From: Giardia intestinalis
Lineage: Eukaryota
Strand: one strand, 5' to 3'
Length of the DNA: 17,765 nucleotides
Assembly (NCBI GenBank): GCA_000002435.2
Contig: AACB03000033.1
Made by a program: the position numbers and the translations under genes. Below the pieces are notes generated by a model. That model ran no database searches, was not told the DNA's origin, and worked only from the letters and a program-made list of their open reading frames with translations. This document shows positions 3,719-5,653 of the stretch, in pieces. The first letter of the stretch is position 1, and every line of letters begins with the position of its first letter.

Positions 3719-3796
3719 CTTGGGTAGTGAATGCTGTACAATGGGTGATAGTGTGTGATAGAGGGTGATAGTGTGATGATAGTGTGATAGTGGAGT
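3719..3796 (+). repeat. Inter-unit spacer. PolyA signal 3726-3732, then 5 GTGATAG-like repeats (3746-3790), then the conserved box.
   Basis: This spacer has the largest copy number of the minisatellite in the window. The out-of-frame ATG at 3802-3804 reads atg cac aaa ggc tga. Confidence 0.8.
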
Positions 3797-5653
3797 GTGA
3801 TATGCACAAAGGCTGAGGGAGGAGTGTGCACTGCTTGTAAAGCAGATAACGGCCTGTTCAAGAACCCAGTTACACCTCAGAAGCCTGGTAGTGAGTGCAT
3901 CCTCTGTCATGATGTCAATGGGGCAGATGGATATACAGGGGTGGCTAACTGCGCACAGTGTACCAAGTCAGACAGTAGTCCAGGACCTGCCACGTGTACA
4001 GAGTGCCAAGATGGATACTACAAGAACTCTCAGACATGTGTCAAATGTAATGAAGCTTGTCTGACCTGCGATGGAAGTGGTCAGAATCATTGTACATCGT
4101 GCCCAGAGGGGAAGTACCTGAAGAGTAATCAATGTGTACAAGATACTGGATGCGATGGAAACACTTATGCTGACCCGGAGTCGGGAACATGCAAGGCATG
4201 TAGTACGATACACGCAGAGTGCACGGCATGCTCCTTCGACAAGGCCACGGGGAAGCCGAAGTGCACTAACTGCGGGACCAATAAGACCCCCAGGACGGCC
4301 CTCGACGGGACATCGACCTGCGTGGCGAAGACGCTTGAAGGATGCGAGGGCGCTGACGAGGCCTTATTTATGAAGGAGGACAAAACGTGTGCTCTTTGTA
4401 GTGATGTGACAGATTCAACTCTTGGTAACGAAGGAAAGGCCAACTGCAAGACATGTACGAAAACAGGAAGTGACAATCCAACCTGCTCAGCCTGTCTCGA
4501 TGGATACTTCTTTGATAGTGGTACTAGTACATGTACAGACAAGTGTGGTGATAACTGTGCCACATGCTCTGTTGCTGGTGATCCAAATAAGTGTGAAACC
4601 TGCAAGACTGGATACTTCTTAGTAACTACTACAGATCAACAGGGGAAGAAGTGCGTCCCATGCGATAGCGTAGACGATAAGGGTCGCGAAGGCTGCAGTG
4701 TCTGCTCTAACAACGGTGCTTTCAAGTGCACTGACTGTAAGCCTAACTATCGCAAGGAGGGCAGTACTGGCTCTGTCACATGCACCAAGATCTGTGAAGA
4801 TGATACTGCCTGTGGAGGAACTTCTGGTGCCTGCGATGCAATAGTGATTGATGATAAGGGTGTAGAGCATCATTATTGCTCATACTGTGGAGAAGCTAAT
4901 ACGTATCCTATAGATGGGAAGTGTAATAGTGCTAAAGCAAATAATCAATGTGATCAAGGTGTATGTACACAATGCACTAACAACTACTTCTTGTATATGG
5001 GAGGTTGTTACAAGGTTGATACAGTACCTGGACAACATATGTGCAAGACAGCAGCCAACGGTGTCTGTACTGCTGTTAATGCCAACAATAGGTACTTCAT
5101 AGTCCCTGGGGCAACCAATCAGAATCAGTCTGTATTGGCATGTAGCAACTCCCTTGGCACACTAGTAGGCACTGGTGATACCTCTAAGGCATATGTGGGG
5201 GTAGATGGCTGTTCGGCATGTACGGCCCCAGCAGCTCCATCTGAGACTGGTATGACTGCTGCTGTGTGTACAGCGTGTACCAACAACAACAAGCCCAACC
5301 TGGCTGGGAGCGGGTGCTTCGCATGTACCGTTGACGGATGCTCGCACTGTGGAGCAGGCGATAAGTGCGAGGCCTGTACCAGTAAAGACCAGAGGCCGAA
5401 CACAGACGGAACGAAGTGCATCGCCTGCAATATCGACGGGTGCGTCAGGTGCAGCGAGGAGAACAAGTGCGGCCAGTGTGGGGACGACTACAGGCTGGAG
5501 GGTGAGGCGTGCGTGTCCACCAAGCCCAGCGGGGGCAACAGAAGCGGCCTCAGTACTGGTGCCATAGCAGGGATCTCCGTGGCTGTCATCGCTGTCGTGG
5601 GGGGCCTCGTGGGCTTCCTCTGCTGGTGGTTCGTGTGCAGGGGGAAGGCGTGA
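3797..5653 (+). CDS. vsp: VSP-family protein, unit 3 (type A, 618 aa from GTG; start undefined).
   Basis: Full-length type A copy with GGCY and the CRGKA* tail. It differs from unit 9 only in short patches (N-terminal KAEGG/AASDG, DGCSACTAPAAP/LNCSACTAPTAP, GAGDKC/GAGGKC). Confidence 0.87.
   Translation: MICTKAEGGVCTACKADNGLFKNPVTPQKPGSECILCHDVNGADGYTGVANCAQCTKSDSSPGPATCTECQDGYYKNSQTCVKCNEACLTCDGSGQNHCTSCPEGKYLKSNQCVQDTGCDGNTYADPESGTCKACSTIHAECTACSFDKATGKPKCTNCGTNKTPRTALDGTSTCVAKTLEGCEGADEALFMKEDKTCALCSDVTDSTLGNEGKANCKTCTKTGSDNPTCSACLDGYFFDSGTSTCTDKCGDNCATCSVAGDPNKCETCKTGYFLVTTTDQQGKKCVPCDSVDDKGREGCSVCSNNGAFKCTDCKPNYRKEGSTGSVTCTKICEDDTACGGTSGACDAIVIDDKGVEHHYCSYCGEANTYPIDGKCNSAKANNQCDQGVCTQCTNNYFLYMGGCYKVDTVPGQHMCKTAANGVCTAVNANNRYFIVPGATNQNQSVLACSNSLGTLVGTGDTSKAYVGVDGCSACTAPAAPSETGMTAAVCTACTNNNKPNLAGSGCFACTVDGCSHCGAGDKCEACTSKDQRPNTDGTKCIACNIDGCVRCSEENKCGQCGDDYRLEGEACVSTKPSGGNRSGLSTGAIAGISVAVIAVVGGLVGFLCWWFVCRGKA

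What the first reader, a model, noticed from the sequence alone, without database searches (positions are those of the whole stretch)
3719..3840. All units are headless: no in-frame ATG, no signal peptide, no AT-rich initiator
At all nine visible unit starts the long frame opens at the same point, one codon after the last TAG of the spacer (TAG|TGG AGT G[TA]G ATA TG[CT] ACA...). The frame openings fall at 1886, 3791, 5705, 7641, 9432, 11257, 13162, 15100 and 17014. The first residues (ICTKAEGG.., ICTQASNG.., ICTKASNG..) are already mature Cys-rich domain. The M called by the ORF track is a GTG codon. In units 4, 6 and 8 it is an internal ATG 144 nt into the open frame. The only ATG near each start (e.g. 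3802-3804) is in the +2 frame and terminates after 4-5 codons. Canonical Giardia VSPs start at an AT-rich initiator, with ATG followed directly by a hydrophobic signal peptide. Nothing like that occurs anywhere in the window. The units therefore look like silent cassettes or pseudogenes, or genes needing non-AUG initiation. They could also be driven by an external promoter or need 5' sequence supplied by recombination. An array of conserved, intact-bodied but headless cassettes is the architecture used for segmental gene conversion in other antigenic-variation systems. That mechanism is not established for Giardia.
Basis: partly seen in the sequence, partly recalled or inferred. Interest (0 to 1): 0.78.

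Follow-up and report, generated by a model that had tools for sequence, protein, structure and literature searches.

The report
Headless Giardia VSP pseudogene array
The window is a tandem array of Giardia surface-antigen (VSP) gene copies that all lack their promoter, start codon and export signal. This layout is already described in the literature as "linear arrays" of pseudo-VSPs, and these copies trade sequence blocks with complete VSP genes.

Summary
All nine junctions carry the same 21-mer, TAG|TGGAGTG[T/A]GATATG[C/T]ACA. The reading frame opens at the listed positions. No VSP initiator (PyAATGTT) or signal peptide occurs on either strand.

Each unit is a Giardia duodenalis assemblage A (WB-like) VSP that starts at residue 103 of complete homologues. 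The signal peptide and the first ~85-residue Cys module are therefore missing. Each unit ends in CRGKA, a stop, the VSP-specific polyadenylation signal and a 51-72 nt GTGATAG-repeat spacer with 4-6 in-frame stops.

This is the published "linear array" or pseudo-VSP architecture (Adam 2010; Xu 2020; Rodriguez-Walker 2022). Those papers also proposed the recombination-cassette idea.

New here:
- The eight complete units are all intact, with dN/dS 0.11-0.33 between cassette types and no cysteine replaced in 82 columns.
- The units are mosaics of one another, and near-identical copies differ in clustered patches.
- The units share exact 125-287-residue tracts, with abrupt boundaries, with headed VSP genes on three chromosome-scale contigs of the WB genome.

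Three independent metagenome contigs show the same layout, which argues against an assembly artefact. Expression was not testable. Verdict: real and correctly read, but already known.

The parts
1..1834 (+). Unit 0. A pseudo-VSP cassette of the u2/u8 type, cut by the window start about 45 nt after its frame opening. It has a 1-nt insertion near position 23 relative to unit 8.
1835..1885 (+). Junction 1, a 51-nt spacer. It holds the extended VSP polyadenylation signal (overlapping the stop codon from 1834) and GTGATAG-type repeats with 6 stops in the downstream frame.
1886..3718 (+). Unit 1. A headless cassette of 610 codons running to CRGKA*. The first in-frame ATG is at codon 79.
3719..3790 (+). 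Junction 2, the spacer of the finding, 72 nt. It holds the polyadenylation signal ACTTGGGTAGTGAATGC (3718-3734) and about 4 copies of a 10-nt GTGATAGTGT repeat (3745-3786). It has 6 in-frame stops and stops in all three frames.
3791..5653 (+). Unit 2. A headless cassette of 620 codons. It matches Pfam PF03302 (VSP). The first in-frame ATG is at codon 194.
5654..5704 (+). Junction 3, a 51-nt spacer.
5705..7579 (+). Unit 3. A headless cassette of 624 codons. Residues 309-595 (nt 6629-7489) are identical to residues 433-719 of the headed VSP P0004.
7580..7640 (+). Junction 4, a 61-nt spacer.
7641..9380 (+). Unit 4. A headless cassette of 579 codons. Residues 252-421 (nt 8394-8903) are identical to residues 364-533 of the headed VSP P0018.
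9381..9431 (+). Junction 5, a 51-nt spacer.
9432..11195 (+). Unit 5. A headless cassette of 587 codons. Its head matches u3/u7. Residues 44-185 (nt 9561-9986) are identical to residues 148-289 of the headed VSP P0007. Its 3' end and polyadenylation signal are a variant form (ACTCAGG).
11196..11256 (+). Junction 6, a 61-nt spacer.
11257..13110 (+). Unit 6. A headless cassette of 617 codons and a clear chimera. Its first ~360 nt are identical to u4, and the rest matches the u0/u2/u8 type.
13111..13161 (+). Junction 7, a 51-nt spacer.
13162..15036 (+). Unit 7. A headless cassette of 624 codons, 99.5% identical to u3. The differences are clustered in short patches.
15037..15099 (+). Junction 8, a 63-nt spacer containing a 20-nt-period repeat.
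15100..16962 (+). Unit 8. A headless cassette of 620 codons, 98.6% identical to u2.
16963..17013 (+). Junction 9, a 51-nt spacer.
17014..17765 (+). Unit 9. A copy of unit 1, cut by the window end. It carries four 1-nt indels relative to unit 1. The first is in a G run and stops the frame at codon 31.

Best explanation
The window is a stretch of a Giardia duodenalis assemblage A (WB-like) VSP 'linear array'. It is probably a whole unplaced contig. It holds at least 10 head-to-tail pseudo-VSP cassettes.

**Shown.**
- Each cassette is a VSP ectodomain from residue 103 of complete homologues onward. It continues through the transmembrane helix, CRGKA, the stop codon and the VSP-specific extended polyadenylation signal, and ends with a 51-72 nt GTGATAG-repeat spacer with 4-6 in-frame stops.
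- The initiator/promoter, the start codon, the signal peptide and the first ~85-residue Cys module are absent.
- A block of ~230-250 nt spans each junction: the last ~120 nt of one unit, the spacer, and the first ~60 nt of the next. It is 81-100% identical among units, while the bodies are 40-55% identical.
- The cassettes are mosaics of each other.
- They share exact tracts with sharp boundaries with headed VSP genes elsewhere in the genome.

**Inferred.**
- A cassette cannot make a surface protein on its own.
- The array grows and shrinks by unequal crossing-over on the conserved junction block. An 8-unit, 15.1-kb higher-order repeat is visible.
- Cassette bodies are continually reshuffled by segmental gene conversion, both within the array and with complete VSP genes.
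- The array therefore acts as a silent sequence reservoir that diversifies the expressible VSP repertoire on an evolutionary timescale.
- Exchange with translated genes keeps the cassettes looking like constrained coding sequence.

Nothing here shows that this exchange contributes to antigenic switching within an infection.
For: **Identity.**
- The best protein hit is 100% identical to a G. lamblia ATCC 50803 VSP.
- The units match PF03302.
- CRGKA, the transmembrane helix and the GGCY motif are present in every unit.
- The extended polyadenylation signal is present at 9 of 9 junctions, with one mismatch each (motif).

**Headlessness.** The cassette start aligns to residue 103 of the headed P0005 and P0045, and the equivalent GSEICT motif begins at residue 105 in P0004, P0007 and P0018.

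**Constraint.**
- All 8 complete units are intact.
- dN/dS is 0.11-0.33 between cassette types, at dS 0.8-3.5.
- Of 82 Cys columns, none shows a replacement.

**Recombination.**
- u6 is the u4 head joined to the u2 body, u5 carries the u3 head, and u1 shares its last ~360 nt with u0/2/6/8.
- Differences between near-identical cassettes fall in patches at unit nt 19-56, 1404-1441 and 1803-1815.
- Identity to headed VSPs jumps from 45-55% to 100% over 125-287 residues. The pairs are u3/P0004, u5/P0007, u4/P0018, u1/P0005 and u1/P0017.
- At DNA level, u1 against the DH-isolate headed gene is ~55% identical for the first 960 nt and then 90-100%.

**Junction block.** **Higher-order repeat.**

**Independent assemblies.** Three independent contigs carry the same junction family.

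**Literature.**
- Linear arrays have ~60-bp spacers, and downstream members never have the Inr. The cassette hypothesis is stated explicitly.
- Unassembled contigs contain only VSP pseudogenes.
- G. muris pseudo-VSP arrays are untranscribed and in genetic exchange with VSPs.
Against: - Neither the direction nor the timing of transfer between cassettes and headed genes is resolved. The arrays could be sinks that only receive sequence.
- DNA of the WB headed genes could not be fetched. Tract identity is therefore known at protein level, except for the one DH gene.
- The deep dN/dS signal may have been inherited from a time when the sequences were part of functional genes.
- Intactness is not universal. 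A cassette in metagenome contig L003 has an in-frame nonsense codon. Units 0 and 9 carry 1-nt indels.
- Silence is assumed, not measured. Some G. intestinalis pVSPs give RNA-seq signal.
Confidence: 0.8

Rival explanations
1. Plain decaying junk. A 5'-truncated VSP was tandemly amplified, and the copies are neutral pseudogenes that have not yet had time to break. They neither donate sequence nor do anything else.
For: - A nonsense codon sits in an otherwise intact cassette of the same junction type in L003.
- Frameshifting 1-nt indels occur in units 0 and 9.
- Adam 2010 lists many very short or truncated array members and names 'remains of discarded vsp genes' as one option.
- The window junction looks like a ~66-nt deletion derivative of a longer junction.
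Against: - Cassette types differ by dS 0.8-3.5, yet none of 4,881 codons is a stop, no cysteine is replaced, and dN/dS is 0.11-0.33. This is incompatible with neutral divergence from one headless founder.
- Sharp-edged identical tracts shared with headed genes show ongoing exchange.
- The indels in units 0 and 9 lie at the two window ends. At least the first in unit 9 sits in a G run, so they may be sequence-quality problems.
Confidence: 0.12
2. The cassettes are expressed genes. They would be translated from the GTG at codon 3, from internal ATGs, or from a polycistronic or read-through transcript driven by the headed first gene of the array. They would then yield functional proteins.
For: - The bodies are intact and constrained.
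- Every unit keeps a polyadenylation signal.
- Some pVSPs give RNA-seq signal and change during encystation.
- One disputed study localised signal-peptide-less 'VSPs' to the plasma membrane, as reported critically.
- GenBank entries 'VSP S6/S7' correspond to array members.
Against: - There is no Inr and no signal peptide.
- The first in-frame ATG lies 49-194 codons into the frame.
- There are 4-6 in-frame stops in every spacer.
- A Cys-rich ectodomain with a C-terminal anchor but no signal peptide would not be expected to reach the surface. This rests on established secretory-pathway knowledge.
- No Giardia-type intron acceptor or branch motif lies at the junction.
- G. muris pseudo-VSPs are essentially untranscribed.
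Confidence: 0.05
3. An RNA-level role. The arrays would be transcribed on the sense and/or antisense strand to supply double-stranded RNA or small RNAs that help silence the VSP family through the conserved 3' end.
For: Only circumstantial. Most VSP loci show more antisense than sense reads. The cassettes carry the family-wide conserved 3' ~120 nt at 84-100% identity.
Against: - Nothing in the window points to a promoter on either strand.
- Rfam finds nothing.
- An RNA role would not require intact reading frames or conserved cysteines.
Confidence: 0.03

Closest known systems
Giardia intestinalis VSP 'linear arrays' / pseudo-VSPs (Adam et al. 2010, PMC2996952; Xu et al. 2020, PMC7000408; Rodriguez-Walker et al. 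2022 preprint)
   Same: - The units are head-to-tail with ~60-bp spacers.
- Downstream members lack the PyAATGTT initiator, a proper start codon and a signal peptide.
- They keep CRGKA and the extended polyadenylation signal.
- They sit largely on short or unplaced contigs.
- The consecutive ATG-ORFs of u5-u6-u7 have (length, Cys count, CXXC count) of 539/65/24, 427/51/18 and 576/77/30. These match vsp82-84 of the chromosome 4 array in the published table.
   Different: Nothing essential differs; this is a member. Details added here:
- the exact truncation point (residue 103);
- the ~66-nt deletion relationship to the longer 'MLYSDSDS...LLFMGGCY' junction type;
- dN/dS and cysteine statistics;
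- the list of exact tracts shared with headed genes.
Giardia muris telomere-adjacent pseudo-VSP arrays (Xu et al. 2020, PMC7641422)
   Same: Tandem arrays of signal-peptide-less VSP copies. They are inferred to exchange sequence with a smaller set of intact VSPs.
   Different: - The G. muris arrays are almost all telomere-adjacent, end in GCRGK, and are reported as untranscribed.
- G. intestinalis arrays show no telomere preference.
- The chromosomal position of this window is unknown.
Trypanosoma brucei VSG pseudogene arrays and mosaic VSG formation
   Same: A large silent archive of arrayed, incomplete antigen genes. Conserved 3' ends serve as homology, and mosaic genes are built by segmental conversion.
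   Different: - T. brucei has dedicated telomeric expression sites, and switching by DNA rearrangement has been demonstrated.
- Giardia has ~136 headed VSPs, each with its own initiator.
- Its switching is reported to occur without DNA change (background section).
- Most archived VSGs are visibly broken, whereas all 8 complete cassettes here are intact.
Bacterial silent-cassette systems (Borrelia vls, Anaplasma msp2, Neisseria pilS)
   Same: Promoterless, 5'-truncated cassettes in tandem. They are separated by short conserved repeats and share flanking homology with an expressed gene.
   Different: These systems have a single expression locus and unidirectional conversion measured during infection. 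Neither feature is known or tested for Giardia.

Membership tests
Complete Giardia VSP gene (as defined by Rodriguez-Walker et al. 2022 and Xu et al. 2020) | C-terminal transmembrane helix followed by a CRGKA cytoplasmic tail | tested here: met
   All 8 complete units end in ...GGLVGFLCWWF[V/I]CRGKA*. They match Pfam PF03302 at 132-134 bits against a cut-off of 31.4.
Complete Giardia VSP gene (as defined by Rodriguez-Walker et al. 2022 and Xu et al. 2020) | Cys-rich ectodomain with many CXXC motifs and a GGCY motif | tested here: met
   Cysteine content is 11.9-13.1%, with 26-32 CXXC motifs per unit. Each unit has one GGCY motif.
Complete Giardia VSP gene (as defined by Rodriguez-Walker et al. 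2022 and Xu et al. 2020) | Extended polyadenylation signal ACUUAGRUAGURAAYRY just after the stop codon | tested here: met
   There are 9 matches, one at every junction. Each has a single mismatch and overlaps the stop codon. Chance expectation is 0.01.
Complete Giardia VSP gene (as defined by Rodriguez-Walker et al. 2022 and Xu et al. 2020) | Initiator/Kozak-like element PyAATGTT at the start codon | tested here: not met
   There are 0 matches on either strand, against 2.7 expected.
Complete Giardia VSP gene (as defined by Rodriguez-Walker et al. 2022 and Xu et al. 2020) | N-terminal signal peptide | tested here: not met
   Maximum 10-mer hydropathy of the first 30 codons is 0.6-1.4, against 2.2-2.7 in headed homologues. 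No in-frame ATG precedes a hydrophobic stretch. This is hydropathy only; SignalP was not available.
Pseudo-VSP linear array (Adam 2010; Xu 2020) | Two or more adjacent head-to-tail VSP units with very short spacers (average ~60 bp) | tested here: met
   There are 10 units on the + strand. The spacers are 51, 72, 51, 61, 51, 61, 51, 63 and 51 nt.
Pseudo-VSP linear array (Adam 2010; Xu 2020) | Downstream members lack the Inr, a proper start codon and a signal peptide | tested here: met
Pseudo-VSP linear array (Adam 2010; Xu 2020) | A headed first gene at the 5' end of the array | not testable with these tools
   The window starts inside a cassette. Contig look-ups for WB proteins and window ORFs found nothing.
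Silent donor cassettes for segmental gene conversion (vls / msp2 / pilS / VSG-mosaic type) | Promoterless, truncated copies with conserved flanking homology | tested here: met
   The units are headless. A conserved junction block of ~230-250 nt is 81-100% identical, against 40-55% for the bodies.
Silent donor cassettes for segmental gene conversion (vls / msp2 / pilS / VSG-mosaic type) | Expressed genes contain segments identical to cassette segments (mosaics) | tested here: met
   Exact tracts of 125-287 residues are shared with the headed genes P0004, P0007, P0018 and P0017. Three shorter exact tracts of 42-69 residues are shared with P0005. Identity steps abruptly from 45-55% to 100%. At DNA level the same step appears against the DH headed gene.
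Silent donor cassettes for segmental gene conversion (vls / msp2 / pilS / VSG-mosaic type) | Unidirectional cassette-to-expression-site transfer observed during growth or infection | not testable with these tools
   This needs longitudinal long-read sequencing. The literature states that Giardia switching occurs without DNA change.
Silent donor cassettes for segmental gene conversion (vls / msp2 / pilS / VSG-mosaic type) | One or few dedicated expression sites | not tested
   According to the literature, Giardia WB has ~136 headed VSPs, each with its own Inr. This differs from single-expression-site systems.

The most novel reading that the evidence does not exclude
The pseudo-VSP arrays could be an active donor archive. 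Mitotic segmental gene conversion from cassettes into headed VSP genes would then occur fast enough to create new surface variants within clonal lines or single infections. That would give Giardia a second, DNA-based layer of antigenic diversification on top of epigenetic/RNAi switching. In this reading, the intact frames, the untouched cysteines and the conserved junction block are maintained by selection on donor quality.
Probability: 0.15. Interest if true: 0.75.

Novelty: already known. Interest (0 to 1): 0.25.

Why it matters
Pseudo-VSP arrays make up a large share of the Giardia surface-antigen sequence space: 208 pseudo-VSPs against 133 VSPs in the reference genome. If they feed sequence into expressible genes, the effective antigen repertoire is much larger than the ~136 complete genes. 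That bears on vaccine design and on how chronic infection is sustained. This window is a clean, well-resolved example. It has 8 intact cassettes with visible chimeras and exact tracts shared with headed genes, probably including VSP1269, which I recall as an expressed VSP. It could serve as a marker set for a direct test. As a discovery it adds nothing in kind, because both the architecture and the hypothesis were published in 2010 and are built into the current annotation.

Tried and rejected
1. **Wider context and DNA of headed WB genes.** Exact-product contig look-ups failed for P0004, P0005, P0007 and the window ORF 5849-7579. Only the DH-isolate orthologue of P0005 (L001) was obtained.

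2. **'Spacer is designed to stop all three frames.'** Rejected. Only 4 of 9 spacers have stops in all three frames. All have 4-6 stops in the downstream frame.

3. **Cassettes as 3' exons, spliced in cis or trans.** Rejected as unsupported. The only CTRAC(N2-5)CAG match is internal, at 8104. No GTATGT lies at a junction.

4. **Spacer as a degenerate relic of the FMGGCY coding stretch.** Replaced by a better model. L004 keeps GATAGTATGATAGTGG followed by ~66 nt encoding LLFIGGCYKTESQPG before SEICT. The window junction is that sequence with the ~66 nt deleted.

5. **The Trp codon at the frame opening as a cassette footprint in headed genes with QWSEICT (P0005, P0045).** Rejected. The DH gene uses TGG TCT GAG ATC against TGG AGT GAG ATA in the cassettes, and the surrounding DNA is only ~55-60% identical.

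6. **Known RNA families.** None found.

7. **Origin of GenBank 'VSP S6/S7' (AAN52101/2; S6 = AY142127), cDNA or genomic.** Not resolved. No paper in the library cites AY1421xx accessions.

8. **Bacterial promoter/terminator scan.** Not used, because it is irrelevant to Giardia.
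Full report
**1. What is in the window**

The window is one continuous head-to-tail array of ten units on the + strand.
- Unit 0 is cut by the window start.
- Units 1-8 are complete.
- Unit 9 is cut by the window end.

Each complete unit is open for 579-624 codons and ends in ...GGLVGFLCWWF[V/I]CRGKA*. The units match Pfam PF03302, the Giardia variant-specific surface protein family, at 132-134 bits against a cut-off of 31.4. The best database hit, XP_001705784.1 of G. lamblia ATCC 50803, is 100% identical in its best local alignment, which covers 69% of unit 2. 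The sequence is therefore G. duodenalis assemblage A, WB or very close to it.

**2. Checking the observation**

- The 21-mer TAGTGGAGTGWGATATGYACA occurs nine times, once per junction, with zero expected by chance.
- The ORF-track starts are GTG in five units. In the three units where codon 3 is GAG, the start is an ATG 144 nt into the frame.
- The first residues, WS[V/E]ICT[KQA]A.., have a maximum 10-residue hydropathy of 0.6-1.4. Real VSP heads fetched for comparison score 2.2-2.7.
- The VSP initiator PyAATGTT is absent from both strands, against 2.7 expected.
- No ATG-ORF joins a signal-peptide-like start to a VSP body.
- One small correction: the out-of-frame ATG at 3802 is not the only one nearby. 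Each spacer has two or three further ATGs, all ending within 3-11 codons.

**3. Anatomy of the junction**

- The stop codon overlaps ACTTGGGTAGTGAATGC (ACTCAGG... after unit 5). This is the VSP-specific extended polyadenylation signal ACUUAGRUAGURAAYRY with one mismatch. It is present at 9 of 9 junctions (motif).
- Next comes GCT[G/A]TACAATG[G/T]G, followed by three to five GTGATAG-like 10-nt repeats.
- The spacers are 51, 61, 63 or 72 nt long and carry 4-6 stops in the frame of the next unit. Only four of the nine block all three frames, so I dropped that idea.
- No Giardia-type intron signals sit at the junction, and no Rfam family matches.

**4. What is missing**

Complete homologues from the WB genome (P0004, P0005, P0007, P0018) have three N-terminal parts:
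- a ~15-residue signal peptide;
- an ~80-residue Cys module ending in FLFMGGCYK, with GGCY at about residue 95;
- then ..PG/QW-SEICT...

The cassettes begin at residue 103 of P0005 and P0045, which both read WSE[I/V]CT there. In P0004, P0007 and P0018 the equivalent GSEICT motif begins at residue 105. About 102 residues are therefore missing, not just an ATG and a signal peptide.

Other array members in WB keep slightly more. Their ORFs read MLYSDSDS..MRLLFMGGCY..PGSEICT, starting from an ATG embedded in the previous unit's polyadenylation signal.

A metagenome contig (L004) shows that longer junction at DNA level. It has GATAGTATGATAGTGG, then about 66 nt encoding LLFIGGCYKTESQPG, then AGCGAGATATGCACA. 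The window junction is the same sequence with those ~66 nt deleted.

Assemblage B proteins annotated as partial share yet another start, VNDPAGVSIDSLCRP, in 21 of the 120 listed hits. Assemblage E has MGGCY.. starts. Headless VSP units are thus general in the species complex, with different truncation points.

**5. Not an assembly artefact**

Three contigs from independent ENA metagenome assemblies (L002, L003, L004) contain the same layout: CRGKA*, the same polyadenylation signal, GTGATAG repeats, and a directly abutting VSP body. L002 and L003 open at the same point, reading TAG|AGG GTG ATA TGC ACA.

The stand-alone headed gene in the DH isolate has the polyadenylation signal but no GTGATAG spacer after it. 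The spacer is therefore specific to arrays.

**6. Constraint**

- The eight complete units hold 4,881 codons without a stop.
- Between cassette types, dS is 0.8-3.5 and dN/dS is 0.11-0.33.
- Of 82 alignment columns containing cysteine, none shows a replacement.

Neutral divergence from a single headless founder cannot produce this pattern.

Intactness is not absolute. One L003 cassette has an in-frame nonsense codon. Units 0 and 9 have 1-nt indels. Those indels lie at the two ends of the window, and the first one in unit 9 sits in a G run, so they may reflect sequence quality.

**7. Recombination**

*Within the array*
- u6 is identical to u4 for its first ~360 nt and then follows the u0/u2/u8 type.
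- u5 has the u3/u7 head.
- u1 shares its last ~360 nt with u0/2/6/8.
- u3 and u7 are 99.5% identical.
- The few differences between near-identical units are clustered at unit nt 19-56, 1404-1441 and 1803-1815, as expected of short conversion patches.
- Window 1-2637 and 15129-17765 are 99.2% identical, an 8-unit, 15,128-nt higher-order repeat.
- A conserved block spans each junction: the last ~120 nt of one unit, the spacer, and the first ~60 nt of the next. It is 81-100% identical, while the bodies are 40-55% identical in ungapped comparison. This block is the obvious substrate for unequal crossing-over.

*With headed genes*

| Cassette tract | Length | Headed gene tract |
|---|---|---|
| u3/u7 aa 309-595 | 287 aa | P0004 aa 433-719 |
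| u5 aa 44-185 | 142 aa | P0007 aa 148-289 |
| u4 aa 252-421 | 170 aa | P0018 aa 364-533 |
| u1 aa 242-366 | 125 aa | P0017 aa 356-480 |
| u1 aa 271-447 | three exact tracts of 42-69 aa | P0005 |

- Identity steps from 45-55% to 100% at the tract edges.
- These headed genes lie on chromosome-scale contigs of three sizes: 4.02 Mb (P0004, P0005, P0017), 1.97 Mb (P0007) and 1.49 Mb (P0018).
- By length, Cys count and CXXC count, P0018 matches vsp139 (VSP1269, M83934), P0004 matches vsp149 (GL50803_116477), P0005 matches vsp72 and P0007 matches vsp190 in the table of Adam et al.. These identifications rest on those three numbers only.
- At DNA level, u1 against the DH headed gene is ~55% identical for 960 nt and then 90-100% to the stop.

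**8. Comparison with the literature**

- Adam et al. 2010 described 'linear arrays' containing over half of the WB vsp repertoire. Spacers average 60 bp, and no downstream member has the Inr. [quoted passage not shown]
- The consecutive ATG-ORFs of u5-u6-u7 have (length, Cys, CXXC) of 539/65/24, 427/51/18 and 576/77/30. These equal vsp82-84 in that paper's table.
- Xu et al. [quoted passage not shown]
- Rodriguez-Walker et al. call the pseudo-VSPs a sequence reservoir. They note that unassembled contigs contain only VSP pseudogenes.
- The G. muris genome paper reports untranscribed pseudo-VSP arrays in genetic exchange with intact VSPs.
- Some G. intestinalis pVSPs do show RNA-seq signal.

**9. 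Verdict**

The finding is real and well read, and it is a member of a known kind. The best explanation is a silent pseudo-VSP cassette array. It is maintained and reshuffled by unequal crossing-over and segmental gene conversion, and it exchanges sequence with expressible VSP genes.

- Shown: the anatomy, the headlessness, the constraint and the mosaicism.
- Inferred: silence, the direction of transfer, and any role in variation within an infection.

My analysis adds numbers and specific shared tracts, but no new concept.

Noticed in passing
window 1-2637 vs 15129-17765: An 8-unit higher-order repeat with a period of 15,128 nt and 99.2% identity. The differences include one cluster of 11 substitutions at 1375-1412. 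Two distinct copies of the unit pair therefore exist, and this is not a simple overlap artefact.
   Followed up: partly
window ~23, and ~17092, ~17652, ~17699, ~17727: All single-base indels relative to the paralogous copy lie within ~750 nt of the two window ends, and the first one in unit 9 sits in a G run. They break units 0 and 9. They may reflect low-quality contig ends rather than real decay.
   Followed up: partly
window 4793-5011 (GC3 26%), 6629-7489 (GC3 72%), 2696-3226 (GC3 76%): Third-position GC is very uneven within cassettes, ranging from 38% to 82% by thirds. Tracts shared with headed genes tend to be GC3-rich. Tracts shared only with other headless units are GC3-poor. This might help to polarise the direction of transfer.
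   Followed up: partly
window 1343-2452 (-), 3278-3910 (-), 6942-7859 (-), 14494-15219 (-): Long antisense ORFs of 210-369 aa run straight through the spacers. The reverse complement of TGATAG carries no stop codon. This is probably a by-product of composition.
   Followed up: no
window 1847, 3731, 5666, 7592, 9393, 11208, 13123, 15049, 16975: The ATG embedded in the polyadenylation signal (AGTGAATGCTGTAC) gives only MLYNG* or MLYNV* here. In other WB arrays the same ATG opens an ORF through the spacer into the body (MLYSDSDSAMWCGGDSDS..LLFMGGCY). That explains several old 'VSP' annotations.
   Followed up: partly
window 11172-11211: Unit 5 ends with a synonymous variant of the conserved tail (TTCATATGTAGAGGGAAGGCATGA) and the ACTCAGG form of the polyadenylation signal. 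The ACTCAGG form is the one seen in metagenome contigs L002 and L003. This points to a different lineage for this 3' end.
   Followed up: no
L003 164-2116; L004 1880-2147: One L003 cassette carries a single in-frame nonsense codon (..VGVDGC*QCIAP..). L004 contains a mini-unit of ~250 nt that holds only the C-terminal region, like vsp14 of Adam 2010.
   Followed up: partly
proteins P0020, P0057, P0060 and others: Twenty-one assemblage-B-type 'partial' VSPs all begin at VNDPAGVSIDSLCRP, about residue 42 of complete VSPs. This points to a separate, conserved truncation point for headless units in assemblage B.
   Followed up: no
units, e.g. window 4958-5080 (u2 aa ~390-430): The body-internal stretch YFLYMGGCYxxxxxPGxxMCKTAxxGxCT resembles the head/body boundary of complete VSPs (YFLFMGGCYKxxxxPGSEICTxAxxGxCT). 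The cassettes therefore start just after a repeated module boundary.
   Followed up: no
P0029 / P0098 (AAN52102.1, AAN52101.1): The GenBank entries 'VSP S7' and 'S6' correspond to array members. S7 is identical to u5 aa 49-473 and then diverges. S6 is vsp138, an array member. Whether they came from cDNA, which would imply transcription, could not be established.
   Followed up: partly
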